Below are positions 10,026-51,545 of a stretch of DNA of 64,000 bases, in pieces. Numbering within the stretch: position 1 is the first letter of the stretch; each line of letters starts with the position of its first letter. The stretch is taken from positions 57,001-121,000 of the forward strand of contig CAUJDS010000011.1 of NCBI GenBank assembly GCA_963169695.1. Direction: 5' to 3'. The notes under the pieces are model-generated. The model had not been told where the DNA came from. It did no database searches and worked only from the letters and a program-made list of their open reading frames with translations. The stretch comes from Bdellovibrionota bacterium (GTDB lineage: Bacteria > Bdellovibrionota > UBA1018 > CAUJDS01). Both the position numbers and the translations under genes were made by a program.

Positions 10026-10331
10026 ATGCCTGGACAGCGCTCCTATAAAATAGCTCCCATTACAGTGAATGGCATTAAAATCGTTCGTGTGATCATCGAC
10101 AACCATTATAGAGAAAATCATGCTGAGCATATGAATGACGAGCTGATTCTAAAGTTGGTTATAGAGCTCGATGGCAGAAAAGAATTGCCAGAAACTAAAA
10201 CTGGGCAGTATTCGTACTTCGCTACTTTAATTGAATTAGATCAGAAGCAATACCGATTGATATGGCTACTTGAAGATCACGCGCTTTATGTAGGAGTTGT
10301 GAACGCTTACAGAGATAAAAGGAGGAAGTGA
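10026..10331 (+). CDS. DUF4258-like toxin of a type II toxin-antitoxin module.
   Basis: 101 aa. HYRENHAEHMNDELILKLVIELDG ... YRLIWLLEDHALYVGVVNAYRDK matches the DUF4258 pattern (HA.ERM.ER.I...L.G ... VVITAY). AT-rich (about 38% GC) islet. Followed 3 bp later by an XRE-HTH gene. Confidence 0.55.
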   Translation: MPGQRSYKIAPITVNGIKIVRVIIDNHYRENHAEHMNDELILKLVIELDGRKELPETKTGQYSYFATLIELDQKQYRLIWLLEDHALYVGVVNAYRDKRRK

Positions 10332-10334
10332 AAA

Positions 10335-10637
10335 GTGAGATTTCCAAGTGAAAGAGAATTAAAAACTATCCGTAAAAAACTGGAGAAGGTTGAGCCCTCT
10401 CGCACGCTTCCTAAAAATGCAAGCAAGGCTGACGAATTGAAATATAAACTTTGTGAGAAATTTGTATGCTACTTGCTTGATCATAAGATGACGCAAATTC
10501 AACTGGCAAAGAAACTCAAGATTGATCCGTCTCGAGTCAATGAAATTGTGAAATATAGAATTGATCTGTATACGATCGATAAGCTGATGGATCTTGCAGA
10601 GAAGCTCCGTTTGGAATTTGAAGTTGAAGTGGCTTAA
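10335..10637 (+). CDS. XRE-family helix-turn-helix antitoxin (HigA-like position downstream of the toxin).
   Basis: 100 aa. MTQIQLAKKLKIDPSRVNEIV is a canonical XRE HTH. Tightly coupled to the upstream toxin ORF. Confidence 0.6.
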   Translation: MRFPSERELKTIRKKLEKVEPSRTLPKNASKADELKYKLCEKFVCYLLDHKMTQIQLAKKLKIDPSRVNEIVKYRIDLYTIDKLMDLAEKLRLEFEVEVA

Positions 10638-10740: not shown

Positions 10741-13700
10741 TCAAGGCTCCGCCCTCAGAAGACGAAACCCAATGTCGCCGTAGCGAAGCTCGGGATGATA
10801 CCAACGCCGCCGAGAAGAGCGCAGATAACGGGCGTCGTGGCGCCAACTGCCGCCCCGAATCACTCGAGTGGAGTCCGCCTGGACGGCAGCACCGATGGGA
10901 TCCATCAAGGTCTGGCCAGAGGGGATATCCCCGTGTGCGTCCTCGCACCACTCCCAGACATTGCCAGCTATGTCATAAATCCCAAAATTATTGGGCTTAA
11001 GCCCTGCGACCGGATGGGTCTTGCTGCCAGAGTTGCTCTCGAAGTACGCATACTCAGGTAGATCGGATGCGCTCTTGCCAAAGAAATACTGCGTCTTGCT
11101 TCCAGCTCTTTGGAGGTACTCACGTTCGGCCTCGGATGGAAGGCGGTAGCTCCGGCCGGTAACTTCTGAGAGCTTCACAAGGTAGGCATGAGCGTCAGTC
11201 CAGCTGACTTGCTCAACAGGTCGATTGATGCGTTCGGGGGAGAAAACAGAGACTTTTATTCCGGCAGCGTTTTTATTGAAGTGGCTTGGGTCTTGTTTCA
11301 TCAAAAGCTGATACATCCCTTGAGTGACCGAGGCCTGCGCTGCAGAAAAAGCACGGGTCAAGACCACCTGGCGCTCGCCTTCGTCTTCGGGAGACCCCAT
11401 GGTGAAGCTCTTTCTCTCCCCACGTCTGATAATGGGCTGGTACTCAAAGCTCTCGGCCTTAGCGTATTTGGCAAAGTCCTCTAGCACGCCTTGGTCTTTG
11501 GCAAGCCGCCTAAAATGCAACAAATCCGATGTCGCATGAAAGGCTTTGATGAGTGGCTCTTGCTGAGAATGTGGAACTTCTTGGAGCAATTCTCCAAAGA
11601 CATCAAACGTACCGGATCCATGAGTCGCTTTGAGGATGGGGAGCTTAAACGACACATCGACTCCAGGATCTCGGATCCACCGAGTGATGCGATTGTTGAG
11701 TGCATCGACACGAGGATGGGGTTTTGTCTTAGGGCCTTTCCTAAGGATGCTCTGATAGGCGCGTATTGCTAGGTGATTTCTGGCAAGGTCTTCATCGCGC
11801 ACAAGCCTTATTGCTAAGGCCTTGCTTGAAGGAACTTGTGAACCAAGCGCCCAGCCAAGCTGTCTAGCAATCGCCGTATCATTGACAAGCTGTCGGATAA
11901 ATCTTCGGCCCATGGGCATGACGTAGGTCTCGAATTCAGTACCTTTTGCTAGGTTTGCAAAGTGCACCATGGGAGCCATTTCTGCCGTTGCAAGGGCATG
12001 CTTGGCTGCAACCAAGAGCGCCCGAGCCTTGTCATCGCTTAAGGCCTTGGAGTCCACAATCGCTTTTGCGAGGCCTGGCATGTGCTTAGTAAAGGCCACT
12101 TCAAGCGCTTCTCGAAACCTTGGGTCTGAGTTGTGCCGAAATTCTTGAAAAATTTGTAATCCATTCGAATCCGATAGTAGCGTGCGAAGGCTATGGGCCC
12201 GCGTATGCAGGTCGTACTTCAGTAAGTCCGTAAGACTAAATCCAAGACCTACGTCTTTGAGCTTTGTATACTCTGCTACCGTAAGCCCACGGGTATCGGT
12301 GAGTTCAATGACGGGCTTTGCAGCCTCAATCTGATCGGCACTAAGGCCCAAGGATGCTTGGACTTTGATAAGCATCTCTCCATCTTTGTCCCCTTCAATG
12401 GACTGAGCACCCAAGATCGCGCGCTCGAGTGCCGGAGTACTCTTGAGATTGGTGACAGGCTGATACCTTGCATGGTCCAAAGTGGTGACCACAATAGCTT
12501 GTTTCCCATCTTCTCCCGCAAGGATCCTCTCATCGTGTTGGAGTCTTACGAGATAGCCATTCTCAAGGTATTCTGCTTTGACATAGTTATGAGCATCTGG
12601 CTGATGGTCCGCCATGTACTGATCCAAGGCCTTCCAGCCCTGGGGAAGTGTGAAGCGAGCTTTCTCTTTGGCCCCTTCCATCAATCCCTCCTTGGCGGCT
12701 GGAGTGTTGTAGAGGTTGCTGTGCTTTTTGAGATCTGCCACCGCCACCTCTTGCACTCCGTAATCGTGTGCCACGAGCCTTCGCACCATTTCGACATCGG
12801 ATTTTTCTAACGTAGGGCCTTGGATCGAAATGACGTACGGAACGGATCTTCCACTTTCTTCCGCAAGAAAACTCAGAGCGTACCCGTCAGGTCTGGAGTT
12901 GGGGTTATCACCGAGACGGATGTAGTGTTTTTTGACTCGCTTAAGCAGCGACCAAAAAGGACCATTTTGAATCGAGCAATCATCCCCATAACACCCTGTC
13001 ACCATCCCCACGAGCGCCGGAAGCGTCTCAATCGATAGTGCTTGCACGGTTGGTGCAGGACCAGGGTCACCGGGAGGGCGAGGGATTTTTCTCATCGCTG
13101 CTTGGAAGTCTTTTTCGATCATCTGCTTGCGGATCCGTCCTAGCTGACGAGGCACTTCTCCTAGTCCTACCGACCTTCCTCCTTCTTTGGCTTCTACGGC
13201 AGCATTCACTAACGAGTCCAAATGATCCCCAAAGAAGTCTCCATAGAAGTTCTCAAGTTTTTCTGGAGTGCTAGCTAGGATGGCTCCTTCGATTTGAGGT
13301 AAATCATTTGAGAGATTCTTAAACTTCGCTTTGCCATCACCATCAAATAAATACGGCGCAACCTTAAGCAATCGATCCACCTGGGCCTGAAAACCCTTTG
13401 CATCGTGCAAGCCTTGCCCATTGACGGCTTGAGCTTTGAGCTGCTTAAGTGCTCCCAGAAAACTTCCCGGCTCGCCATGAAGAAGGATCGCCCTAAGATC
13501 TTCCACACGGGCTTGCTTGAATGCTTGGATCGCACCCACATTGTAAATCTTGCTATCTGCTGATTTCAGGTACCTAAGGCTTGTGATCCTAGGTCCATGG
13601 ATCTGAAGGCCCGCAAAGTCCTCTCCCAATACCTTCTTCAAACCCGGAACATGCGAGTACAACTCCAAGAGACTTCTGCGGTACTGAAGGTTGGCAGTCA

Positions 13701-13881
13701 CTTGATCCGGGTGCTCATTCAATAGACTTAGGATAAAACTCAGCTGCTCTTCCGTCGTATCTACCTTCGCCGTCCATGCTTTCTGCAGGCAATCGCGCAC
13801 GCTTCCCCACGCCGGCGCAACTGCACAACACGTCAAAACCAGCGCTGAAATCAGCAACCTAACCCTCACCGCACACTCCAT
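10741..13881 (-). CDS. Large secreted protein with a C-terminal formylglycine-generating enzyme (FGE/SUMF1, DUF323) domain. The N-terminal ~850 aa have no recognisable domain.
   Basis: The C-terminal ~200 aa carry the FGE-sulfatase signature (SWTDAHAYLVKL..., GNVWEWCEDAH, RVIRGGSWRHDARYLRSSRR, GFRL). The likely start is the ATG at 13881 (MECAVRVRLLISALVLTCCAVAPAWG signal peptide), not the track start at 14031. Confidence 0.65.
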   Translation of the reverse strand: MECAVRVRLLISALVLTCCAVAPAWGSVRDCLQKAWTAKVDTTEEQLSFILSLLNEHPDQVTANLQYRRSLLELYSHVPGLKKVLGEDFAGLQIHGPRITSLRYLKSADSKIYNVGAIQAFKQARVEDLRAILLHGEPGSFLGALKQLKAQAVNGQGLHDAKGFQAQVDRLLKVAPYLFDGDGKAKFKNLSNDLPQIEGAILASTPEKLENFYGDFFGDHLDSLVNAAVEAKEGGRSVGLGEVPRQLGRIRKQMIEKDFQAAMRKIPRPPGDPGPAPTVQALSIETLPALVGMVTGCYGDDCSIQNGPFWSLLKRVKKHYIRLGDNPNSRPDGYALSFLAEESGRSVPYVISIQGPTLEKSDVEMVRRLVAHDYGVQEVAVADLKKHSNLYNTPAAKEGLMEGAKEKARFTLPQGWKALDQYMADHQPDAHNYVKAEYLENGYLVRLQHDERILAGEDGKQAIVVTTLDHARYQPVTNLKSTPALERAILGAQSIEGDKDGEMLIKVQASLGLSADQIEAAKPVIELTDTRGLTVAEYTKLKDVGLGFSLTDLLKYDLHTRAHSLRTLLSDSNGLQIFQEFRHNSDPRFREALEVAFTKHMPGLAKAIVDSKALSDDKARALLVAAKHALATAEMAPMVHFANLAKGTEFETYVMPMGRRFIRQLVNDTAIARQLGWALGSQVPSSKALAIRLVRDEDLARNHLAIRAYQSILRKGPKTKPHPRVDALNNRITRWIRDPGVDVSFKLPILKATHGSGTFDVFGELLQEVPHSQQEPLIKAFHATSDLLHFRRLAKDQGVLEDFAKYAKAESFEYQPIIRRGERKSFTMGSPEDEGERQVVLTRAFSAAQASVTQGMYQLLMKQDPSHFNKNAAGIKVSVFSPERINRPVEQVSWTDAHAYLVKLSEVTGRSYRLPSEAEREYLQRAGSKTQYFFGKSASDLPEYAYFESNSGSKTHPVAGLKPNNFGIYDIAGNVWEWCEDAHGDIPSGQTLMDPIGAAVQADSTRVIRGGSWRHDARYLRSSRRRWYHPELRYGDIGFRLLRAEP

Positions 13882-14059
13882 CGCTCTCCTGTCGGCATGA
13901 CAAAGGACATATTTTATGCACACACCCGAATCACCTCGAATTTTACTTCCTAGGGATTCTGAGCGCCATCCGACGTGGTCTTTGTAAACCTTTGACGGCG
14001 CAGATTCAAAGCAATGGTCTCCAAAAAGCACTTTGAGTCATTTTTTTGACTCTCCTACC

Positions 14060-15547
14060 TTAGAATATCCGATCTACAAAAATTCCATGAAACGTATAGG
14101 GAATAGGATAGTCGAAATGCAACCTGCACATCGGCTTAAGCTCGTCACCCCAGGCATCAAGCACCTGAAGGTAGGATCGATCGCGATGCGAATCATAGAC
14201 CATTGAAAGCAAATAGCCGTCATCTTCCGCTCGAGGCCGAGCACGAGGAACAAAGATCGCTTCTGTGGTCGTATGGCCTTTGTCACAATCCCATCGCTGA
14301 GCATTTCCGGTCGGGACATGAACCTTAAAAAGGGCGCTATAAAAATCACAGGCGTCCTTGACGTCCTCCCGAAATCCAGCGAAGTAGGTCCACTCATAAT
14401 GCGTATTCACTGCAGCAGGCGCAATCGTTGGAAATTCTCCGTGAAGCTCCAACCTTTTATGATTGCGAATGGATTTGCTATCCGTCTCAATCTCCATTCG
14501 ATACACACTCTGATCTTGCCCATTCGGCGTAAGGACTCCACTCATCACCGAGCGAATCCACTCCATCCCTATGGCCGAAGTGGAGGCCATATAATCCACA
14601 ACAATCTTATTTTCACTCCGAAAGGCATTGACCACATGGACTGCCAAAAGTCCTTCGATCTTTTTTCTCCACGCTTGTGTCACATCATCCAGCGGAACCA
14701 CGATCACTTCACAACCTTTCTCAGGTGAGAATCGAAGCGAAGCATCAAAAGACTCGCCTTTCACGATGACATTGAACGGATTAGAAAAAATGGGAGAACA
14801 AATAAATACGATCGCATCGTCCACTACGGCAAAGTCATGAACAAACGCTGATGCGTTGTACCTCACCGCCCCTAAGTACCGCGCCGGACCTTCGTCAGGT
14901 AGGCAATACAAATCCAACGATGGAATCGGAAGCGGTCGAAATCCAAATGCATAATGCGCCCGTCTCGTCGGTACATATTTAGGATGAGCAGTGAAGGAAT
15001 ACCGCACAACCCCACCCAAGTCCGTAGGTCCAAGTGTCTCGAGAGTCTTAGGATCAATCTCAGTTGGATGACTTGCTTCGTAGAGTGCAAAGAGTCGGTG
15101 CTGCCACTCAAAAAGCGCCGTATTGGCAAGGTTGGCACCTGCACGTGAATCCCACATTGAGCGAATTCGAGTGGTAATTTTGGGTGCAGCTGCTCCGAAC
15201 CGAGCCAAGATGGGATGTCCCGCTTGATGTTCTTGATCTAACCCGCAATCTACCAGCCGACACGCACCCCAAGCCCCGCTTTCATTGATTCGGACGGCGG
15301 CGATTAAACCTTCTCCGTCAAACCAATGTGCATGCCTTTTGCCAAACGACTCGAAGGTCCCTGGCCCTACGCGATAAAGGCAACCTTGAAGATCTCGAGG
15401 TAGAATGCCCTCTACCCTTAGGGGTTCGAATTCATGTGCTCGGTCTGGCGTTTTTAGACTTCTAAATCCTGTAAACTTGGCGCTCGACGGCTGCTCCATG
15501 GTGTTCTCCCAGGAGGGAGTGTGACTTGATTGAACCCGATTGACCAT
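14060..15547 (-). CDS. Carotenoid cleavage oxygenase family protein (RPE65/lignostilbene dioxygenase-like).
   Basis: 495 aa. N-terminal FEPLRVEGILPRDLQGCLYRVGPG...HWFDGEGL motif typical of carotenoid oxygenases. Conserved His-containing beta-propeller blades. Confidence 0.7.
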   Translation of the reverse strand: MVNRVQSSHTPSWENTMEQPSSAKFTGFRSLKTPDRAHEFEPLRVEGILPRDLQGCLYRVGPGTFESFGKRHAHWFDGEGLIAAVRINESGAWGACRLVDCGLDQEHQAGHPILARFGAAAPKITTRIRSMWDSRAGANLANTALFEWQHRLFALYEASHPTEIDPKTLETLGPTDLGGVVRYSFTAHPKYVPTRRAHYAFGFRPLPIPSLDLYCLPDEGPARYLGAVRYNASAFVHDFAVVDDAIVFICSPIFSNPFNVIVKGESFDASLRFSPEKGCEVIVVPLDDVTQAWRKKIEGLLAVHVVNAFRSENKIVVDYMASTSAIGMEWIRSVMSGVLTPNGQDQSVYRMEIETDSKSIRNHKRLELHGEFPTIAPAAVNTHYEWTYFAGFREDVKDACDFYSALFKVHVPTGNAQRWDCDKGHTTTEAIFVPRARPRAEDDGYLLSMVYDSHRDRSYLQVLDAWGDELKPMCRLHFDYPIPYTFHGIFVDRIF

Positions 15548-17717: not shown

Positions 17718-19181
17718 ATGAAAACTTCGCTTCGATGGCTCGCCTTGGCAGTGACTGTTTCTTCTATCTCCCTTCCCTTCACCCCTTTTCGAAGCCAAGC
17801 CTTTGCACAATCGCCTCCCGCTGCGCATCGAGACCAGGCTTCTCGATTGCTGGAGCGGCTCTTACAACAAAGTGATCCAACTGCCATGGAGCAAATCATT
17901 CGGAGTCAAAAGCTTCAGGCAGTATTGGACCTTGCCTGGACGAGGTACCATGAAGAAGGAAGCACAAAGTATATAGACTACTACCGGACTCTGCGTGCCT
18001 ACCTTGCTTATGAAAATAGCTCAGCTCCTGCGCTCGCACTCTTGGGTAGTGAATCCGATAGGCTCCTCACCGTGGTCCAAGAATGGGATATTCTCTTTGT
18101 AGCAGGAGACCTTTATTTTAGGATCTTACGAGCCGCGCCGGGCCTTACCCCCCAGGAGCGCACTGATCGATGGAAGAAATTGGTCGAAGCCGTTGCGAAG
18201 AATCCCTTCTACCGAAGCAATGTTAATCGCGAATTCGATCAGGAGCCCGTTTGGATCAGGGACTGGGACTACGCTAAAATCCTTGCTGATTCTGATATTT
18301 ATCCTTTCATCCTAGCGAATCAAGGAAGCGACGAACCATCTTGGCTCACGATGAGGCGATTAATCGAGCATCAAAATCTTACCAATCCTGAGCTTTTTCC
18401 CGCTTTTCTGCACCTCTTTGTCAGATACACCCTAAACTCCACCTGGAGCCGCTTCAATCCTCCTCCCACTGAACAGAGTCAAGCTGCACTCAAACTCGTC
18501 TCGGAAGCTGTCACTGGAATCGGACTCCTTCCAGTTGCAGACGCAGTGAAATCCCGCGCGCTTGAGGTTCTGATGCGATCGGAGGTCATGGCGCGAGTCC
18601 ACGATCACCTGGCAATATTGGCTCACAAGAAATTTTCAGATTACCCTCTCGAGACCAATGAAGGGCCCTTTGTCCTGCGTGGACTCGATATGATCTCAGC
18701 GATGAACCAAGAGGTGCTTCGTACGGGGCAAGCCCAACTCACCCCACTACTAGTCCTTGATTACCTGCCACTTATGACCCATTTGTATGGAGATGTGGAT
18801 TGGGATTTTGAATTCCTGGATAGGGATAAAGTGAAGGCAATTTTGGATACCGCAAATTCCCTTCTCCCCGTCGAAGTATCGGAGTCAAGAACCTTTATGG
18901 ACAAAGCCACTTCCGCTGAAGCCCTTTTTCCACAGCCGACGGAGTCCCTTCTTGTAAGCTGGAAGGAAATCCTTCGAGGAAATATGCGACATTACCCTAT
19001 CAATAAAAGCATCGGGCATTCAGAGGGAATAAGGCATCCGTACCTGAACGAAGGCAAGTATGGTTATGGGTTGGCCAATCTTTCTTCGATTGGGCAATAC
19101 TCCGAAGACAAAGAAATCCGAATCGTGGCAAATGCTGTTGCCAATAATCTGAGGGGCTGGGTTACTTCCCTGATTCGGTGA
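17718..19181 (+). CDS. Secreted hypothetical protein (487 aa).
   Basis: Signal peptide MKTSLRWLALAVTVSSISLPF...AFAQ. No recognisable domain. Confidence 0.5.
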   Translation: MKTSLRWLALAVTVSSISLPFTPFRSQAFAQSPPAAHRDQASRLLERLLQQSDPTAMEQIIRSQKLQAVLDLAWTRYHEEGSTKYIDYYRTLRAYLAYENSSAPALALLGSESDRLLTVVQEWDILFVAGDLYFRILRAAPGLTPQERTDRWKKLVEAVAKNPFYRSNVNREFDQEPVWIRDWDYAKILADSDIYPFILANQGSDEPSWLTMRRLIEHQNLTNPELFPAFLHLFVRYTLNSTWSRFNPPPTEQSQAALKLVSEAVTGIGLLPVADAVKSRALEVLMRSEVMARVHDHLAILAHKKFSDYPLETNEGPFVLRGLDMISAMNQEVLRTGQAQLTPLLVLDYLPLMTHLYGDVDWDFEFLDRDKVKAILDTANSLLPVEVSESRTFMDKATSAEALFPQPTESLLVSWKEILRGNMRHYPINKSIGHSEGIRHPYLNEGKYGYGLANLSSIGQYSEDKEIRIVANAVANNLRGWVTSLIR

Positions 19182-44271: not shown

Positions 44272-47200
44272 TTATTCCGCTTTGGAAGAAGTGCTGCGGT
44301 AGCGGGCGGCGGCTTCTTTGAGTTCGTCTTTTTTTGCAATGAGGCTACTGGAAATGGATTCGCAACTCGCATCTCCATCATCCATTTTTGATTCACCGGT
44401 TGTCTTCTTCTCAGCGGTCTTATCTCTATTGGCCCGCAAGTCTCGCAAGTCAGCATTCTTTTCTTCTTTTTCTTTTTCTATACGGTCTATTTCATCTTGG
44501 AGATTCTTGCCATTGGCTGAATCAAACGCCGCTTTTCTAAAATCATATTCTCTTTGATCTCTTCTTGCAGCATCCTCCGCTGCGGTCACTTTCGATCGAA
44601 GCTCGTTGTATTCAGCATTCAGTTGGTTTAATACACTTTCAGCTCGAGTCTTATCACTCTGTAATCTTGGCACTTTCTCTGGGTTTTTCTTATCGCCTTC
44701 GGTTGCCTCATAAAAAGCTTTGTCGGCATTTTTTAAAGCCTCATTTGCCACAAACCAGCCACTGCTATCACCAGATTTTTTAAAATTATTTAACCGAGCT
44801 GAAAGCACCTCCAACTCGGACTTCGAGGTCAACCACGTTTTTTCAATTGCTTGAAAATTGGTCTCTTTAGTACCGTAGCTCGCATCATTCTTCGACTTGA
44901 GCGCCGCCAGGTCGGACTTCAACTTTCGAATTTCCTCTTCAGCATCTTTCACTTTCTTCTCAGAACTTGCAATGGAAGCCAGGTCCCTAGCATTACTAGT
45001 CCCAGTCACTTTGCTCACGCCAGATCTCAGGATATCTGCGATATCCCGTGGCAGGTCATTGATCACAAGCTCCATATTCGACGTAAATTCTTTGAGTCGG
45101 TCGGTACCACCAAATTTATCTTCCATCCATGCGCAGGATTCCTTGAACTTGATACCAAGGGCTTCAAGTTCCTTGGCTTTGTCCTTCAAGCGATCCAAAG
45201 AACATTCGGACTTCAGCTCTTCGATTTCTTGAGAGACTTTGGCGATCTTCTGATTCTCTTTTTCTAATTCGGCTGCCTTCTCAGTGACCTTAGACAACTC
45301 ACCATTGAGGTCGCTCGAACCAAAATCAATCAACGGAGTACCTTGCATTTGTCCCGCAATAAGCCCCATAACATTCGTGCTTTTGCCCGGAATAGTAATC
45401 GGTTCGCCACTTGCTGTTTTTCCGACAACCTCTTGTGGTGCCTCAACCGGCGAAATGTACTTAAACCGAAAACCACCCGAAACTCTCAAGTCTTTTCCCG
45501 ATAGGTATTTGGATATCTTATCCAGCTGAGTCTTGATACTAGCAGCGTCTCCCGCAGGCCCACTGAGTGCCTGGCCAATAGTTTTGAGCTTGGTCGTGTA
45601 GCGTTCTTCCGCCAATCTCGCTGCCTCTTGCTGATTGCTTCGTACTTCGTTCACCGTGCGAATAAAATTGGTCGTCTGCTGCTGAAGGTTGCTAATAAAC
45701 CCTTCGATTCCTGCTCCGGGAATGGTCAAATTCTTTACGTAAGTGCCACCCTTGAAAGTCATGCTCGTAACCGAGACCTGGGGGTCGTCGCCGCGAACCA
45801 GAGAGCCCAATGTTTTTTTGAGGTCATTCAGGCAATTTTCTTCTGCATAGCCCAATGAGCTATCACACTGTTTGGTAGGAATGGCCACGTGGCCAGCACC
45901 TAGGACGCGCGCCACATTTTGAATATCAGCGGTATACTGCCCCAACATGGTCTGCGCAATTTGTTTGGAGGTTCGGCGAGTTTCTTCAATCTCTCGCTTC
46001 TTGTTGGCCAATGGGGTGCCTTCTTGTTTGGTACGACTGTTCACCGTCTTAAAGGCTGCGCTATAACAACCGCTCACTGCTGCATTGAGGAATCCTAGCA
46101 GATTGATTCCCGGCGTACTGATTCCAGAAAAGCGCTTGTTCAAGGTGGCAATCAATTCTTCCTTGGACATGATATTGAACGTCTGCCCGCCATAAGCTTC
46201 GGCAGCCTGAGGATTGGTAGCCGCACCTTTGGTCTTTGGCACATCCCCAAAAAGGCGTGCTAGCTGACTCTTCACCAAATTAGCGGTACTTGCGGCAGAT
46301 TTTTTATTAGCTGTACGGGTCTTGGCCTGGCCATCCTCGCCACGAAGGGATTCTTGCTCAATGCGTTCCAACAAAGCTTGCTCTCGACTACAAGAAACCG
46401 TTTGGCCAAGTTGCTCGCCTTTTCCAAGACACTTCATATTTGGGTCTGGTGTCTCTCGGAAGCAACGCTCAGTCTCTTCCATAATGGAGACGGACCATTG
46501 TTGATTGTATTCGGTGACTTTCTTTCTGAGATCCGACATAGCACGACTAACAACGGCTGAATCATTTTCGAGGCGGACGTTGAAATCTCCCTGGCCACGG
46601 GCCAACTTTTCTTTGAGTTGAAGGAGTCCGTCCTGTCCAACGGCTGGATTACCCGAAAGCTTAAGTTGAACTTCTTGTTGCTGCTGACCCAATTCTTCGA
46701 GCGCCTGACGATAGCCTTTTTGTACACGAAGGTTTTCGTCTACTTCCGATTGAAGGGGCGAGGCCAAAGAAGACGCGAATTGCTGAAAACTGCTGCCCTT
46801 TTCTACCAGACAAGCTACTTCCTGTTGCACGTAGTTGGCTTTGTTGATCTTACAAATATTGGCTTCTATTGCTGCCGCGTTATCTTGAATCAAACTACTC
46901 GTGGCCTTGAGACTAAAAACTCCCGTCTTATCTTTTACTGAAGAGGAGCTACAAGAAGGCGCAGATAGCACGGGGGTCACTTCCGGACAGTCGACTTCTA
47001 GCCCCATCGCGTTCTGCGCGCTACCGACGAAGGCTGAGTTAGAAATCTTCTTTGCTTTGGTATCTGTATAGCCAAGGTCCTCGTCTTCCGTAGCCTTTGG
47101 CGCTGCTTTGCTTTGCCTTGCTACTTGAATCACTTTACCTGTCAGACATTGATAGGGAAGCGACGGAGATGCTAGCCCGGTCAAATTGACATTGGACGAT

Positions 47201-47349
47201 GAGAAGTTGGTGGAAGGTCCCCAGGCAGCCGGCAAGTTTACCGAGGGCGCATTCACTGCAGCTGCATGGGCAAAAAGCACAACTCCTAAACCCGTAGGAA
47301 TAAGAAATCCAATGACCATTGCAAAATGAGGACGAAACAAACCCCGCAA
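44272..47349 (-). CDS. Large secreted coiled-coil protein (1025 aa), unknown function.
   Basis: N-terminal signal/TM (VIGFLIPTGLGVVLFAHAAAV). Long K/E/Q-rich predicted coiled-coil segments. Multiple Cys pairs. No recognisable catalytic domain. GC lower than its surroundings. Confidence 0.6.
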   Translation of the reverse strand: MRGLFRPHFAMVIGFLIPTGLGVVLFAHAAAVNAPSVNLPAAWGPSTNFSSSNVNLTGLASPSLPYQCLTGKVIQVARQSKAAPKATEDEDLGYTDTKAKKISNSAFVGSAQNAMGLEVDCPEVTPVLSAPSCSSSSVKDKTGVFSLKATSSLIQDNAAAIEANICKINKANYVQQEVACLVEKGSSFQQFASSLASPLQSEVDENLRVQKGYRQALEELGQQQQEVQLKLSGNPAVGQDGLLQLKEKLARGQGDFNVRLENDSAVVSRAMSDLRKKVTEYNQQWSVSIMEETERCFRETPDPNMKCLGKGEQLGQTVSCSREQALLERIEQESLRGEDGQAKTRTANKKSAASTANLVKSQLARLFGDVPKTKGAATNPQAAEAYGGQTFNIMSKEELIATLNKRFSGISTPGINLLGFLNAAVSGCYSAAFKTVNSRTKQEGTPLANKKREIEETRRTSKQIAQTMLGQYTADIQNVARVLGAGHVAIPTKQCDSSLGYAEENCLNDLKKTLGSLVRGDDPQVSVTSMTFKGGTYVKNLTIPGAGIEGFISNLQQQTTNFIRTVNEVRSNQQEAARLAEERYTTKLKTIGQALSGPAGDAASIKTQLDKISKYLSGKDLRVSGGFRFKYISPVEAPQEVVGKTASGEPITIPGKSTNVMGLIAGQMQGTPLIDFGSSDLNGELSKVTEKAAELEKENQKIAKVSQEIEELKSECSLDRLKDKAKELEALGIKFKESCAWMEDKFGGTDRLKEFTSNMELVINDLPRDIADILRSGVSKVTGTSNARDLASIASSEKKVKDAEEEIRKLKSDLAALKSKNDASYGTKETNFQAIEKTWLTSKSELEVLSARLNNFKKSGDSSGWFVANEALKNADKAFYEATEGDKKNPEKVPRLQSDKTRAESVLNQLNAEYNELRSKVTAAEDAARRDQREYDFRKAAFDSANGKNLQDEIDRIEKEKEEKNADLRDLRANRDKTAEKKTTGESKMDDGDASCESISSSLIAKKDELKEAAARYRSTSSKAE

Positions 47350-47598: not shown

Positions 47599-49262
47599 CC
47601 AGCAAGGCGGGTTTGATTCTTGGAAGTGGGTAATGGATGACAGGAAGGGGAGCAGCGAGGGAGGCAAAATTGAAAGAGTATTTTCAGTAAGGACCCGTGA
47701 ATACTCGTTTCATTGACTCCCTTTCTGCGCGCGAAATGGAAAGGAATTTTTCATCATCCTATTTGTAATTCAGAATTTTTCTCAAATTTTCTGTCATTTT
47801 TGCTTGACCGAGTTTTTTTATAAAAGGGTATTCTTCATTCAGTAAATCCAAGCAATGCGTAATGTCCTATTGCACGCGCATAATGCCTCAGTAGAGCATC
47901 GTTCGCTTAGCAATCCTCCGGGCTCATTTGAATGCTTGTATCGAGTCTCCTATAGAAGACTAAGGACTAAATATTCGACCAAAAATTCCGTGATAAGTAG
48001 TTTCGAAGAAAAAGAAACGGAGAAATGCAATGCTGCAAAATGAATCCACTCAAGCGTCAAAGATTAAAAATATTAGCACAGAACAATCGCCTTCTAGCCT
48101 CAAGGGATTGTCGGATTCTCAGTTGCAGCTTCGAATCCGAGAGCTTGCCAAAGCGGAACAGAGACTGACTTTACAAGTGCTGCTTCACCTCAAAGAAATC
48201 TCCGATCGCAAGCTCCATGCAAAGCTTGGATATGCTTCCTTATGGGAATATGCGGTGAAAGAACTAGGCTATTGCGAGGCTTCCGCTTCCTCTCGTATTG
48301 CGGCGATGCGACTGATGGTGAGTGTTCCAGAAGCTAGGACTCAGATCGAAAACGGGAAACTCACACTTTCTCAGGCAGCAAGGATTCAGCAGTTTATTCG
48401 CAAGGAGAATCAAGTTTCTTCTCAGCCCATTACGAAAAGCGAAACCAAAGCAATCATCCAGGCCTCCGTAGGTACTTCCATCCGAGAGACCCAGAGGATG
48501 CTCGAAGCCAAAGCCCAAGAACGAAGACCCAGCCTGATTGCAGAAAAGCCGAATCAACCTACTATCTCCTTCCAAGCCGATGAAGAAACCATGCAAATGC
48601 TAGAAAGGCTCCGAGAGCTGCGTGGAAACTTGGGAGCCTTGGAGTTATTTAAGCTAAGCCTGAGAACCACTTTAGACAAACTCGATCCACTCCGAAAGAA
48701 GCAGAAGGTAATAGGAAATAGCAAACCAGATCCATCCCTTTTTGCGCAGAAACCCGAGGATGATTGCCTCGTTTTTGATAGGAATTTATGCCCAACTTCT
48801 CCGAAGCCTTCACGCTTTATTCCGCAATGGATTCGGATCGAAGTGGCTAAGCGTAGCAAAGGCCAGTGCGAGTACCATAGTCCTTTAAACGGCAAGCGAT
48901 GCGAGAGTCGGTACCGCGTTCAATACGACCACATTGTGCCGATTGCTCGTGGGGGAGTAGGAACGCTAGCTAACATTCAGCACCTTTGCGGACTGCACAA
49001 TCGTACAAAGGGGGTGCAGATGGAGGCTGCGTACTTCGGGGTAGGACATGCAGTTGCGCCACCAGAAAGAAGAAGCTAATTTTGGTACTTATAGTGAGTA
49101 CGCGCGCGCGAAGAAGGGAAATGTTTTGATTGGCTAACAGGCAACTGTAAAATGCATGAATGTTTTGCAATTTTGAACCTACTTTTTGCACCCCCTCACC
49201 CTTGCTGTTCTCCATCCTGTCATCCATTGCTAACTTCCAAGAATCAAACCCGCCTTGCTGGA
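47599..49262. mobile_element. TIR-bounded cassette carrying an HNH endonuclease gene (putative small mobile element).
   Basis: Left repeat 47599-47655 (ccagcaaggcgggtttgattcttggaagtgggtaatggatgacaggaaggggagcagc). The right repeat 49201-49262 is its imperfect reverse complement. The first 29 bp are identical and overall identity is about 85% over about 60 bp. The pseudo-ORFs 47513..47716 (+) and 48970..49269 (-) encode the same QQGGFDSWK.MDDR peptide because of this symmetry. Confidence 0.6.
48030..49079 (+). CDS. HNH endonuclease domain protein (C-terminal HNH, N-terminal ~250 aa uncharacterised).
   Basis: C-terminal CEYHSPLNGKRCESRYRVQYDHIVPIARGGVGTLANIQHLCGLHNR is an HNH motif (CxxH..C...DHIxP...GG...N...LC..HN). 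Confidence 0.8.
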   Translation: MLQNESTQASKIKNISTEQSPSSLKGLSDSQLQLRIRELAKAEQRLTLQVLLHLKEISDRKLHAKLGYASLWEYAVKELGYCEASASSRIAAMRLMVSVPEARTQIENGKLTLSQAARIQQFIRKENQVSSQPITKSETKAIIQASVGTSIRETQRMLEAKAQERRPSLIAEKPNQPTISFQADEETMQMLERLRELRGNLGALELFKLSLRTTLDKLDPLRKKQKVIGNSKPDPSLFAQKPEDDCLVFDRNLCPTSPKPSRFIPQWIRIEVAKRSKGQCEYHSPLNGKRCESRYRVQYDHIVPIARGGVGTLANIQHLCGLHNRTKGVQMEAAYFGVGHAVAPPERRS

Positions 49263-49940: not shown

Positions 49941-51545
49941 TTATCGCCTTCCAAATACAACATCCAAAGCACACCGAATCAAGGAACGCCTTTCAACGCT
50001 CTTTGAAGACTCCTTGCCTTTATCCGGATCCAAGAGTGGCTCGAGAAAGGACCTCAGGGCCAACTGACCTTTTGCCTCATTGGTATAGAAATCATGCAAC
50101 ACCGCCTGACCGGGTTTGACCCAGGCCAGAGTGGATTGATCAGTCCCAAGTACCAGCGTCTTTTGAAAGTCCGCGTGGAGGTTAGCCATATGCAAAAATC
50201 CACTATCTTGGGTAATTATGGCGCTGGCTTCTTTCATTGCTGAATACCATATGGGTTTGAGGTCCGGCTCGGCTGGAAGGAATGCAAGCTTGCCTGTTTG
50301 CTCTTGGTATTTTTTCAAAAATGCTTCCGCCTTTGCATAAGCTGATTGAATAGCTTTTTGTTCTTCAGCGTAGTGCTGCGAACTTGGATTCTCCAGTGGT
50401 GTAACTATAATGCGGGTACGGGGATTGACCGAATGGACCGTGCGAAGGATCGCTTCCAGTGCTGCATCTACCTTAGGTCCAATAACCGCCGTCTTAAAGG
50501 TTCCAGCTGTGTTGAGATTCAAAACAAGTAGTGGACCGTCCTGTGACCGAAAGGACGAGCTCAAAAAAGCCCTCCATGCGTTCTCTTCCGCGGGCATTTT
50601 CAACAAAGTGGCCGGAATATGAAAGTCCACGGGAGTCCCAAACAGCACGCCACTTTGCATGCCACTCACTTCATAATTAGACCTGCTCCTGCCAATAAAC
50701 AGATCCTTCCACTTGTCCCAAATCTGATGCCCTGATTCCTGATGACTCGTTTCAATCAGAGAACGCTGAGCTGGGGTGAGGTTCTTGTTCCAAGAGTAAA
50801 CCTCCGCAAGTCCCCCTTCCGTCAGAATCGCCGTCCCTTCTATCGCCTTCAGACGATCTCGGATCGCTTTCTTTACGTGATGGGCTACCCAGCTACTTGC
50901 TTGAGCAATTCTCTCGTTAGATCGCTTGTCAAAAGGTAGTTTCTCTCGCAATCGCCTACGAATTACCGTATTAACAATTTCTCCATCCAAATAACTCGCG
51001 TCCACATAGTAAAGCGTCGTGGGATGTTGAAGTGGCGCCAGCATCTTGCCAAGAAAAGGCTCTAGCTCCCACTTCCAACTCACTGGTGATTTGAAATCGG
51101 TATCCGCCGCATACCGTTCAATTTGACTAAAGACATCCTGACCAATGACTTCCGGAAGCCTCATCGGCTCCAATATCAATCCGCGCTGCGCTCTCAGAAT
51201 ATCTACAAACGGGCTGGTTACGTGCAAAGGAGTTGTTGGAAAAGCGGACTGAATCCCATTCAGCGCCGAAAATCCAAATAGCACCGTATCGCCAAGGTAG
51301 GAGCGATAGCTCAAGAGATGTACCTTCTCCCAAGGCAACCTGATCAATCCGGTAGCCTCTACCATGCTTCGAGGCAAGGGTCCCGTTATCCCAGCAACAC
51401 GCAGGAAATCCGCCCAAAATCCGGGTGGAACCTTCCGGGGTTCCGCTGCAAACACGGAGACCTGCAAGGCCAAGAAAAGGCACAAAAACAAATGTCGCTT
51501 GCAGTGCCGGCCTATGAACTTCTTGAAGAACATCCCTTTCCTCAC
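49941..51545 (-). CDS. Secreted hypothetical protein with a GT9 (heptosyltransferase)-like C-terminal region.
   Basis: Signal peptide (LFLCLFLALQVSVFAA). C-terminal ...IITQDSGFLHMANLHADFQKTLVLGTD resembles the GT9 xTNDSGPMHLAAA...LFG motif. The N-terminal half has no known domain. Confidence 0.4.
   Translation of the reverse strand: MRKGMFFKKFIGRHCKRHLFLCLFLALQVSVFAAEPRKVPPGFWADFLRVAGITGPLPRSMVEATGLIRLPWEKVHLLSYRSYLGDTVLFGFSALNGIQSAFPTTPLHVTSPFVDILRAQRGLILEPMRLPEVIGQDVFSQIERYAADTDFKSPVSWKWELEPFLGKMLAPLQHPTTLYYVDASYLDGEIVNTVIRRRLREKLPFDKRSNERIAQASSWVAHHVKKAIRDRLKAIEGTAILTEGGLAEVYSWNKNLTPAQRSLIETSHQESGHQIWDKWKDLFIGRSRSNYEVSGMQSGVLFGTPVDFHIPATLLKMPAEENAWRAFLSSSFRSQDGPLLVLNLNTAGTFKTAVIGPKVDAALEAILRTVHSVNPRTRIIVTPLENPSSQHYAEEQKAIQSAYAKAEAFLKKYQEQTGKLAFLPAEPDLKPIWYSAMKEASAIITQDSGFLHMANLHADFQKTLVLGTDQSTLAWVKPGQAVLHDFYTNEAKGQLALRSFLEPLLDPDKGKESSKSVERRSLIRCALDVVFGRR

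What the first reader, a model, noticed from the sequence alone, without database searches (positions are those of the whole stretch)
10741..13881. Giant secreted protein whose only recognisable part is a C-terminal FGE/SUMF1 (formylglycine-generating-enzyme-like) domain
The last ~200 aa carry the DUF323/FGE-sulfatase hallmark motifs (GNVWEWC, RGGSW, GFRL). The preceding ~850 aa follow a signal peptide and have no detectable domain. Known FGE-fold proteins are about 300-aa enzymes, or domains fused to kinases (Pkn) or to methyltransferases (EgtB). A 1046-aa secreted fusion is unusual. It sits between the toxin-antitoxin islet and a carotenoid-cleavage oxygenase. The FGE fold often serves as a sulfatase maturase or as a non-catalytic binding module. 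Either would imply that a large unknown extracellular machine is targeted to, or modifies, a substrate.
Basis: partly seen in the sequence, partly recalled or inferred. Interest (0 to 1): 0.6.

Follow-up and report, generated by a model that had tools for sequence, protein, structure and literature searches.

The report
Secreted protein with hypervariable binding tip
The "FGE" domain at the end of this 1046-aa secreted protein is not a sulfatase-maturing enzyme: it is the hypervariable ligand-binding tip of the kind rewritten by diversity-generating retroelements (DGRs), joined to an unannotated conserved module with a GNAT-like core, and the retroelement itself is not in the window.

Summary
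The ORF (minus strand, 10741-13881, 1046 aa, good RBS, signal peptide) and its C-terminal FGE-sulfatase domain are real. The domain is not a formylglycine-generating enzyme. It has no Cys after residue 979, and its closest solved relative by sequence and fold is TvpA, the Treponema DGR variable protein. The N-terminal 825 aa are not an orphan: exhaustive HMMER found 125 representative relatives. They share a ~550-aa module (helical parts plus a GNAT-like core with a near-invariant R-G-x-x-G-x-D-C-S motif). Their C-terminal tails vary (FGE, HEAT/ARM, ankyrin). Three independent relatives with the FGE tail sit next to an HRDC-Avd-reverse transcriptase-template repeat cassette, and their TR/VR mismatches are almost all at adenines. 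The window has no such cassette in about 74 kb. Its last 43 codons still carry the DGR footprint: strong adenine depletion, and AAY-to-NNY-type differences from a near-identical strain at the slots that are Asn codons in relatives' templates. Best reading: a cassette-less (remote, or recently orphaned) DGR variable protein that carries a conserved, probably enzymatic, payload. It probably comes from a Bdellovibrionota-like bacterium. This is a new member of a known kind. The N-module family is new to annotation.

The parts
10741..13881 (-). Whole gene, 1046 codons plus stop
   Evidence: ORF list, translation, identical protein P0001 in NCBI. dN/dS is 0.26 against strain L023, so it is a functional gene.
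13886..13890 (-). Shine-Dalgarno AGGAG upstream of the ATG at 13881
   Evidence: Read directly from the sequence.
13804..13881 (-). Signal peptide, aa 1-26 (MECAVRVRLLISALVLTCCAVAPAWG|S)
   Evidence: It is the only hydrophobic window in the protein. Most complete homologs have an equivalent N-terminal hydrophobic leader. pLDDT drops at aa 19-29. Inferred, not predicted with a dedicated tool.
13090..13800 (-). N-module, first helical subdomain (aa 28-264) with the conserved W-x-P-x-L ... R-H-P ... N-L-x-[FY]-R-R-N block
   Evidence: Family alignments A2/A3. AF2 pLDDT is mostly 85-98.
12472..13089 (-). N-module, GNAT-like alpha/beta core (aa 265-470) with secondary-structure order b1-a1/a2-b2-b3-b4-a3-b5-a4-b6-b7
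12973..12999 (-). Family signature R-G-C-x-G-x-D-C-S (aa 295-303; here T-G-C-Y-G-D-D-C-S, with Thr in place of the near-invariant Arg)
   Evidence: D301 and C302 are >=90% conserved in 108 sequences and invariant in A3. The same T295 is present in strain L023.
12142..12471 (-). N-module, C-terminal helical subdomain (aa 471-580)
   Evidence: AF2 secondary structure. It is the end of the region covered by most family hits.
11446..12141 (-). Middle all-helical module (aa 581-812), a separately shuffled unit
   Evidence: It is matched on its own by P0110, P0115, P0119, P0123 and P0130, which combine it with the FGE domain but a different N-terminus. No Pfam hit.
10744..11445 (-). FGE-sulfatase / C-type-lectin-fold domain of the TvpA type (aa 813-1046; Pfam match 826-1043)
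10744..10872 (-). Variable-region (VR)-like segment, aa 1004-1046: S-T-RVIRGGSW-RHD-A-R-Y-LRSS-R-R-R-W-Y-HPE-L-R-Y-G-D-I-GFRLLRAEP
   Evidence: It is the lowest-A stretch of the gene: 11.6% against 25.9%, and against 19.0+-2.3% expected from its amino-acid sequence (P=0.0004). dN/dS is 1.19 and NNY double-hit codons are enriched against strain L023. AF2 pLDDT is <50 only here. It aligns slot for slot with verified VRs and TRs.
10751..10758 (-). IMH-like core CTGAGGGC at the 3' end of the VR (family consensus [CG][GT]GAGGAC; TRs have GAGTAC)
   Evidence: Comparison of ten family VR ends and three TR ends. The window has one mismatch to the consensus. Its functional status is unknown.

Best explanation
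This is a DGR variable protein of the TvpA (FGE-type C-type-lectin) class. No retroelement cassette lies nearby. After Sec export, the protein presents three parts. The first is a conserved ~550-aa N-module (helical subdomains around a GNAT-like core with a near-invariant Asp-Cys). This is the constant, probably enzymatic, payload. The second is a helical spacer. The third is a C-terminal lectin-fold domain whose ligand-binding face is encoded by the last ~43 codons. In relatives, an HRDC-Avd-reverse-transcriptase cassette copies a template repeat with errors only at adenines and pastes it over this variable region. AAY codons thereby become NNY, which re-targets the protein to new ligands. 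In this genome the same process has acted on the variable region, but from a cassette located elsewhere in the genome (a remote target) or from one lost recently. Shown here: the domain identities, the family, the DGR status of homologs, and the DGR-type footprint and strain-to-strain hypervariability of this variable region. Inferred: export, action in trans, current activity, catalysis by the N-module, and ligand or prey-surface binding.
For: (2) The best homolog, P0007 (same N-module/middle/FGE architecture), lies upstream of HRDC, bAvd, RVT_1 and a TR, and 17/17 TR-VR mismatches are at TR adenines.
(3) Two further independent loci show the same: L003/L004, 18/19 at A, and L010/L011, 14/16 at A.
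(4) All FGE-bearing family tails share the scaffold RGGSW-xxx-A-xx-xRSAxR-xxxx-P-xxR-xxx-xGFR, with variation confined to the same slots.
(5) The window VR is A-depleted like verified VRs (11.6% against 8-11%; TRs 22-25%). It is the extreme of the gene and beyond what its amino-acid sequence explains (P=0.0004).
(6) Strain L023 has flanks 0.0-1.3% diverged but differs in the VR at 11 of 42 codons. Five of these are double hits at codon positions 1 and 2 with position 3 kept (5/42 against 7/1003 elsewhere, p=5e-5). VR dN/dS is 1.19 against 0.14-0.33 elsewhere.
(7) Writing A at every site where the two VRs differ yields STRVIRGGRW-NNK-A-R-N-LRSS-Q-R-N-WYHPE-N-R-N-G-N-IGFRL. Its Asn and Gln slots coincide with those of the real TRs in L002, L003 and L011.
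(8) HRDC-type cassettes are the Treponema-like architecture, the lineage in which remote targets >100 kb from the RT are documented (PMC5758913).
Against: No TR copy (blastn, word size 7), RT, Avd or HRDC was found in the 64-kb window, nor in 6.7 kb further left or 2.9 kb further right. Adenine specificity therefore cannot be shown directly for this gene. The VR is identical in assemblies from three runs of one study (ERR10643333/4/5), so no ongoing variation is visible at consensus level. The IMH-like core differs by one base from the lineage consensus (GAGGGC against GAGGAC). The body of the FGE domain and the GNAT-like core are also strongly diverged between the two strains (dS 0.34-0.41). 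The VR differences could therefore have arrived with an old recombined allele rather than through recent homing. No significant DNA hairpin follows the VR (z=+1.2), but verified relatives are not significant by that test either.
Confidence: 0.8

Rival explanations
1. Fossil target. The gene descends from a DGR target, but the lineage lost its cassette long ago. The VR is now a fixed-specificity binding site, and the strain-to-strain VR differences are old alleles exchanged by homologous recombination.
For: No cassette in ~74 kb. The VR is identical in three runs. The IMH core is off consensus by one base. The whole gene is a mosaic island of old divergence (dS up to 0.41 beside a neighbour with 0 differences). 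The conserved partner ORF of other loci is missing.
Against: Adenine depletion is as strong as in active VRs and exceeds what codon usage explains, although this would decay only slowly. Scaffold codons are perfectly conserved while the variable slots differ. Remote targets are normal for HRDC-type DGRs. Only 74 kb of the genome was inspected, and the NCBI contig alone is 185.5 kb.
Confidence: 0.3
2. An ordinary, DGR-independent secreted binding protein. The FGE-fold tip evolves fast under conventional diversifying selection, and the resemblance to DGR variable regions is only shared ancestry of the fold.
For: No TR was available to prove adenine specificity. Non-DGR FGE-fold binding domains exist, such as PorK/GldK and kinase or NTPase fusions.
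Against: Point mutation plus selection does not readily give five codons changed at both positions 1 and 2 with position 3 kept (p=5e-5). It also does not explain A depletion beyond the amino-acid composition, or variable slots that coincide with Asn codons of homologs' templates. Orthologous-architecture proteins are verified DGR targets.
Confidence: 0.06
3. A catalytic FGE-fold enzyme: a sulfatase maturase (FGE/SUMF1), a PvdO-like dehydrogenase or an EgtB-like sulfoxide synthase, tethered to a large extracellular machine.
Against: No Cys after aa 979, so no FGE Cys pair. PvdO scores 88 bits against a 500-bit cutoff, and EgtB 51 against 360. There is no DinB/iron-binding domain. No sulfatase motif occurs in the window. 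TvpA, which PMC5758913 describes as lacking formylglycine-generating activity, is the closest relative.
Confidence: 0.02
4. A sensor arm of an NTPase-based conflict/defence system, in which FGE-fold domains (some DGR-diversified) act as intracellular antigen sensors.
For: The only word-index hits outside the family were NACHT/CHAT/TIR-FGE proteins (P0002, P0004, P0005). Toxin-antitoxin-like genes flank this gene and P0110.
Against: The protein has no NTPase, TIR, CHAT or caspase domain and no PADLOC hit. It has a signal peptide, so it is exported rather than cytoplasmic.
Confidence: 0.02

Closest known systems
TvpA (Treponema denticola variable protein 1, PDB 2Y3C) and the 'category b' DGR targets of Wu et al. 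2018 (FGE-sulfatase domain with a C-terminal CLec1 variable region)
   Different: TvpA is ~300 aa and consists essentially of the lectin domain. Here the lectin domain follows an ~800-aa extension (N-module plus helical spacer). No cognate TR or RT was found within ~74 kb, so DGR action is inferred from footprints and not shown.
GNAT (GCN5-related N-acetyltransferase) superfamily
   Different: No sequence-level match to any GNAT Pfam or PDB profile. The b4-a3 loop reads T-x-N-G-x-x-L rather than the acyl-CoA-binding Q/R-x-x-G-x-G/A. The protein is exported, where acyl-CoA is not expected. The family has a near-invariant Asp-Cys that canonical GNATs lack. The core is embedded between large helical subdomains.
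Formylglycine-generating enzyme (human SUMF1/FGE, bacterial FGEs)
   Same: Same Pfam family PF03781 and overall fold.
   Different: The catalytic Cys pair is absent (no Cys after aa 979). Sequence similarity is far weaker than to TvpA. There is no sulfatase substrate motif nearby.
PvdO / PorK-GldK / ToxD (non-FGE members of the FGE fold)
   Different: Scores are far below the family cutoffs (PvdO 88 bits against 500, GldK 65 against 350). None of them has a hypervariable C-terminal segment.
Bdellovibrio MAT fibre proteins with diversified adhesive tips (PMC10769870)
   Same: Conceptually similar: large secreted proteins of predatory bacteria in which a constant body carries an exchangeable binding tip, one of them a C-type-lectin fold likened to the DGR protein Mtd.
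   Different: There is no sequence or architectural relationship. MAT tips vary by gene repertoire, not by retroelement mutagenesis. The Bdellovibrionota origin of the window is itself only inferred from homolog names.

Membership tests
DGR variable (target) protein, FGE-type CLec class | C-terminal C-type-lectin fold of the FGE-sulfatase subtype | tested here: met
DGR variable (target) protein, FGE-type CLec class | Variable region paired with a template repeat that differs from it only at template adenines | tested here: not met
   No TR-like copy of the 3' 450 nt in the 64-kb window (blastn word size 7). The feature is met in homolog loci L002 (17/17), L003 (18/19) and L011 (14/16). The rest of the genome could not be searched.
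DGR variable (target) protein, FGE-type CLec class | DGR reverse transcriptase and accessory gene (Avd/HRDC) in the same genome, usually adjacent | tested here: not met
   tblastn with the L002 cassette proteins finds nothing in the window, and the gene tables of the extended flanks L016 and L019 list no RT, Avd or HRDC. Presence elsewhere in the genome (remote target) is not testable with these tools.
DGR variable (target) protein, FGE-type CLec class | Hypervariability between strains confined to the VR slots, with the AAY->NNY codon signature and adenine depletion | tested here: met
   Compared with L023: VR dN/dS is 1.19 against 0.14-0.33 elsewhere; 5/42 double-hit, third-base-kept codons against 7/1003 (p=5e-5); the reconstructed template is Asn-rich like real TRs. 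A content is 11.6% against 19% expected.
DGR variable (target) protein, FGE-type CLec class | IMH at the VR 3' end plus a downstream hairpin/cruciform (PMC3240598) | tested here: inconclusive
   The core is CTGAGGGC against the lineage consensus GAGGAC. No significant DNA hairpin follows (z=+1.2), but verified relatives also score z between -0.85 and +0.7.
Formylglycine-generating enzyme (FGE/SUMF1) | Pair of catalytic cysteines in the C-terminal segment (RGGS-x-x-C-x-x-x-x-C in true FGEs; motif recalled from general knowledge) | tested here: not met
   The protein's Cys residues are at 3, 18, 19, 31, 297, 302 and 979 only. The corresponding segment reads RGGSWRHDARYLRSS.
Formylglycine-generating enzyme (FGE/SUMF1) | Co-occurrence with sulfatase substrates carrying C/S-x-P-x-R | tested here: not met
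   A regex over all six frames of the window found no sulfatase signature. This covers the window only, not the genome.
PvdO / GldK-PorK / EgtB equivalogs (NCBIfam) | Score at or above the curated whole-protein cutoff | tested here: not met
   PvdO 88 bits against 500, GldK 65 against 350, EgtB 51 against 360.
GNAT acyl-CoA N-acyltransferase superfamily (N-module core) | GNAT fold topology | tested here: met
GNAT acyl-CoA N-acyltransferase superfamily (N-module core) | Acyl-CoA pyrophosphate-binding motif Q/R-x-x-G-x-G/A in the b4-a3 loop, and sequence-profile membership | tested here: not met
   The family consensus at b4-a3 is P-Y-I-x-T-x-N-G-x-x-L-x-x-x-D. No GNAT Pfam family hits any of 54 members at E<=1e-3, nor the isolated core at E<=1. 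A profile search against PDB sequences gives nothing.
NTPase-based conflict systems with FGE-fold sensors | STAND/NACHT NTPase or effector domain (TIR, CHAT, caspase) in the same protein or operon | tested here: not met
   Pfam and PADLOC scans are negative. The neighbours are metabolic genes.

The most novel reading that the evidence does not exclude
A lineage of predatory (Bdellovibrionota-like) bacteria deploys a family of exported enzymes with a GNAT-like core and a catalytic Asp-Cys. This could be an acyl-transferase or hydrolase acting on prey envelope components without acyl-CoA. Its delivery address is a lectin tip that a chromosomal DGR continuously rewrites, in this genome in trans on a remote target. 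That would amount to a programmable, guided effector for recognising changing prey surfaces. The gene's mosaic allelic divergence would then be a second, recombination-based layer of the same arms race.
Probability: 0.25. Interest if true: 0.75.

Novelty: new member of a known kind. Interest (0 to 1): 0.5.

Why it matters
The finding turns an apparent oddity (a giant secreted FGE fusion) into an interpretable object: a DGR-type variable protein. It also adds three things that the libraries and papers searched here do not cover. First, a ~550-aa conserved N-module family (125 representative sequences) with a GNAT-like core and an invariant Asp-Cys is fused interchangeably to lectin, HEAT/ARM or ankyrin binding tails and often sits beside a conserved partner ORF. 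Second, HRDC-type DGRs service this family in Bacteriovoracia- and Bdellovibrionales-related MAGs, and no paper in the searchable library links DGRs to that phylum. Third, this is a cassette-less copy, the kind that large metagenomic DGR surveys miss by design (PMC8144416), yet it is recognisable from footprints alone (adenine depletion, NNY double hits between strains, reconstruction of an Asn-rich template). If the payload is an enzyme aimed at other cells, this would be a natural example of retroelement-programmed targeting of an effector.

Tried and rejected
(1) Word-index homology searches. The full-length query returned only FGE-domain fusions. The N-terminal 825 aa returned only itself. 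A 21-sequence core profile returned nothing at all, probably because the candidate filter was swamped. The exhaustive HMMER search was what revealed the family.

(2) Both genome-contig scans (N-terminal region, then the RPE65 neighbour) found no relative, so no species name was obtained. Exact look-ups of window housekeeping proteins gave unnamed singletons.

(3) I tested whether the downstream HTH gene is a synteny relic of a deleted cassette. It has no significant similarity to the HTH genes next to the L002 and L003 cassettes, so the idea is rejected.

(4) The hairpin test for target competence was not discriminating, because verified loci are not significant either.

(5) Direct alignment of the window VR to the L002 and L003 TRs at DNA level showed them too diverged to be cognate (51-56 mismatches, only 18-19 at A). 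This is as expected for a different DGR.

(6) Viral-contig scans for the IMH/TR pattern and for the family were empty. The afdb50 fold library was unavailable. The first metagenome scan attempt with A3 failed for lack of a conserved block; the retry with A4 gave six loci.

(7) Paralogs or internal repeats in the window: none. PADLOC gave no hit. The PHROG hit covers the FGE domain only.

Full report
OBSERVATION. The minus-strand ORF ending at 10741 is real. The longest reading frame starts at a GTG at 14031 (1096 aa). Pfam finds one domain, FGE-sulfatase PF03781, at aa 826-1043 (E=3.7e-36). NCBIfam gives only sub-threshold matches to FGE-fold families: PvdO 88 bits against a cutoff of 500, GldK 65 against 350, EgtB 51 against 360. 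Nothing in Pfam, NCBIfam, PADLOC, PHROGs or PDB sequences matches aa 1-825. The only hydrophobic stretch is the N-terminal leader, followed by A-W-G|S. Base composition and GC3 match the neighbours. The surrounding 64 kb is ordinary chromosome: 2-oxoacid dehydrogenase, acyl-CoA dehydrogenase, TauE, an ABC-F protein and a purine-biosynthesis cluster.

THE N-TERMINUS IS A FAMILY, NOT AN ORPHAN. Word-index searches of 5.8 billion proteins returned only the protein itself. An exhaustive phmmer run over 1.84 billion cluster representatives found 125 proteins at E<=1e-3, 92 at <=1e-10 and 34 at <=1e-30. Most align to query residues ~30-575. A few (P0110, P0115, P0119, P0123, P0130) align only to ~585-820. 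There are therefore two separable modules upstream of the FGE domain. Alignments show a near-invariant R-G-C-x-G-x-D-C-S motif (aa 295-303) plus G333, Y334, P348, Y349, N392, W416, Y434 and R487. The window protein has Thr at the Arg position and Val at Y434, and so does its sister strain. Most complete members begin with a signal peptide, while a ~700-aa subgroup does not. Among the 54 best members, the C-terminal partner varies: 9 have FGE-sulfatase, about 7 have HEAT/ARM repeats and 1 has ankyrin. The constant unit is therefore the N-module, and the FGE domain is one of several interchangeable binding tails. The named members come from Bacteriovoracia and Bdellovibrionales MAGs. The window's own proteins are unnamed singletons, so its taxon is inferred only.

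The decisive lead came from genomic context. The best homolog, P0007 (34% identity, same three-part architecture), is followed by genes with HRDC, bAvd and RVT_1 domains and by a 47-codon FGE-like mini-ORF. That mini-ORF is a template repeat: across 124 nt it differs from the 3' end of the target gene at 17 positions, and all 17 are adenines in the template. A Bacteriovoracia MAG locus (L003/L004) has the same gene order with 18/19 mismatches at adenines. The exception is a T/G at the 3' boundary that also distinguishes TR from VR in L002 (GAGTAC against GAGGAC). Its VR even carries a stop codon created by A-to-T mutagenesis. A microbial-mat metagenome locus (L010/L011) is a third case, with 14/16 at adenines. 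These are textbook diversity-generating retroelements of the HRDC-containing architecture. According to Wu et al. (PMC5758913), FGE-sulfatase/CLec1 targets are the largest DGR target class, some have N-terminal extensions of unknown function, and the Treponema-like lineage is the one with remote targets more than 100 kb from the RT.

IS THE WINDOW'S COPY A DGR TARGET? No template copy of the gene's 3' end, and no RT, Avd or HRDC homolog, exists in the window. The same holds for contigs that extend it by 6.7 kb and 2.9 kb. By the strict definition (a cognate TR), membership is therefore not demonstrated. Four independent footprints say that DGR mutagenesis has nevertheless written this sequence.

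(i) The tail RGGSW-RHD-A-RY-LRSS-R-R-RWYH-P-EL-R-YGD-IGFRL fits, slot for slot, the scaffold shared by all FGE-bearing family members and by the verified VR/TR pairs.

(ii) The last 129 nt are the most adenine-poor stretch of the gene: 11.6% against a mean of 25.9%, and only 0.05-0.3% of equal-length windows in the 64 kb are as low. This matches verified VRs (8-11%), whereas TRs have 22-25%. Resampling synonymous codons for the same peptide predicts 19.0+-2.3% A (P=0.0004).

(iii) A contig from an unrelated sequencing run (L023, ERR15459719) carries the same syntenic block from a sister strain. The 2.2 kb to the right is identical (0 differences), the 2.3 kb to the left differs by 1.3%, and the VR differs at 11 of 42 aligned codons plus a one-codon indel. 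The scaffold residues are untouched. Five codons differ at both positions 1 and 2 with position 3 kept: CGC/TAC, CAC/AGC, CGT/TAT, CTT/GCT and TAC/AGC. That is 5/42 in the VR against 7/1003 in the rest of the gene (Fisher p=5e-5). Positions 1+2 against position 3 are 17:6 in the VR and 96:122 elsewhere (p=0.008). NG86 dN/dS is 1.19 in the VR and 0.14-0.33 elsewhere.

(iv) If both alleles came from one template, every site where they differ must be a template adenine. Writing A at those sites gives STRVIRGGRW-NNK-A-R-N-LRSS-Q-R-N-WYHPE-N-R-N-G-N-IGFRLLRAEP. This is an Asn-rich sequence whose Asn and Gln slots coincide with those of the real templates in L002 (SNRVIRGGSWNNDAQNLRSAQRNNDHPGNRNDNVGLRL), L003 and L011.

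Evidence pulling the other way is as follows. The VR is identical in three runs of one study. The IMH-like core is GAGGGC rather than the lineage's GAGGAC. The two strains also differ strongly in the GNAT-like core and the FGE body (dS 0.41 and 0.34, against 0.07 for aa 471-812 and 0 for the adjacent RPE65 gene). The VR alleles may therefore have arrived with recombined old segments rather than by recent homing. The hairpin criterion of Guo et al. (PMC3240598) could not discriminate, because verified relatives also lack a statistically significant hairpin.

CONCLUSION ON MECHANISM. I put the probability at about 0.8 that this is a DGR variable protein whose C-terminal lectin face has been diversified by adenine mutagenesis from a cassette not in the window. 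Within that reading, I rate "still serviced in trans (remote target)" and "orphaned, now fixed" as roughly comparable, with a slight preference for the former given the lineage's known habit of remote targets. Purifying selection outside the VR shows the protein is functional. The most likely working model has three parts: a constant exported payload (the N-module, probably an enzyme using the conserved Asp-Cys on a GNAT-like scaffold), a helical spacer, and a reprogrammable lectin-fold address. What the payload does and what the tip binds are unknown. An envelope or prey-surface target is a reasonable guess given the phylum of the named relatives. It is not shown.

COMPARISON AND NOVELTY. The C-terminal domain is a member of the known TvpA-type class by fold, sequence and footprint. 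The strict DGR criteria (cognate TR, RT) are unmet locally and untestable genome-wide with these tools. It is not an FGE, PvdO, GldK or EgtB (defining features tested and not met), and it is not an NTPase conflict-system sensor. The N-module is not in any profile library tested and resembles GNATs only at fold level. No paper in the searchable library links DGRs with Bdellovibrionota. The largest metagenomic DGR survey does not mention that group, acetyltransferase or GNAT in its main text, and it states that it cannot detect remote targets (PMC8144416). Overall this is a new member of a known kind, attached to an undescribed conserved module. Interest is moderate (0.5). It is ordinary for DGR specialists in principle, but it is a useful, testable entry point for retroelement-guided effectors in predatory bacteria and for recognising cassette-less DGR targets from footprints.

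Noticed in passing
L002 502-1890; L005 1371-2825; also L011 7845-9179, L013 5089-6423, L014 5761-7095, L012 27-773, L015 302-550: A conserved partner ORF of ~460-484 aa (N-terminal TM segment, Pro-rich linker, no Pfam hit at E<=1) lies directly upstream of the N-module gene in most family loci and overlaps its start in L002 and L005. It is absent from the window and from L003/L004. It probably works with the N-module.
   Followed up: partly
window 10741-13881 compared with L023 2304-5444: The whole gene is an island of divergence between two otherwise near-identical strains: 7.9% against 0.0% (right flank) and 1.3% (left flank). It is mosaic, with dS 0.41 in aa 265-470, 0.34 in aa 813-1003 and only 0.07 in aa 471-812, which suggests import of old alleles by recombination on top of the VR hypervariation.
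   Followed up: partly
window ~12786-12798 (ends of L017/L022 and L027, run ERR10643334): In one run the assembly breaks inside the gene, within the highly divergent GNAT-like segment. This may reflect co-existing alleles in that sample.
   Followed up: no
L003/L004 13211-13309: The VR of the Bacteriovoracia homolog P0011 carries an in-frame TAG where the template has AAG. Mutagenic homing has truncated this allele (the protein ends ...RSAYRFN).
   Followed up: yes
L007 6377-7756 and 8001-10949; L014 1-246 and 9588-10139: Some family loci carry two FGE-domain genes, or two FGE 3' ends, with related VR-like ends (85% and 98.7% identity). These look like multi-target arrangements, or a circular or tandem assembly in L014.
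   Followed up: partly
window 10026-10331 (+) and 10335-10637 (+): A 101-aa ORF with no Pfam hit is followed, 3 nt later, by a 100-aa HTH_37/XRE protein. The pair looks like a toxin-antitoxin module, convergent with the target gene. P0110's locus likewise has an AbiEii/AbiEi pair just downstream of its FGE gene (L008 12256-13804).
   Followed up: partly
window 44272-47349 (-), 56470-58467 (+), 49941-51545 (-), 17718-19181 (+), 48030-49079 (+): Several large ORFs (1025, 665, 534, 487 and 349 aa) have no Pfam domain at E<=1e-5. Together with singleton housekeeping proteins at 90% identity, this suggests a poorly sampled lineage.
   Followed up: no
window 14060-15547 (-): The RPE65-family oxygenase is called with two starts in different sources (495 aa and 479 aa; Met17 at 15499). 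It is 100% identical at the nucleotide level between the two strains, although it sits 179 nt from the hypervariable gene.
   Followed up: partly
L003/L004 1-2757 and 22673-23270: The DGR-bearing locus of the Bacteriovoracia MAG lies between TraC/TrbC conjugation genes and a phage-type integrase, so that cassette may ride on an integrative conjugative element. The window copy is in a core metabolic neighbourhood.
   Followed up: no
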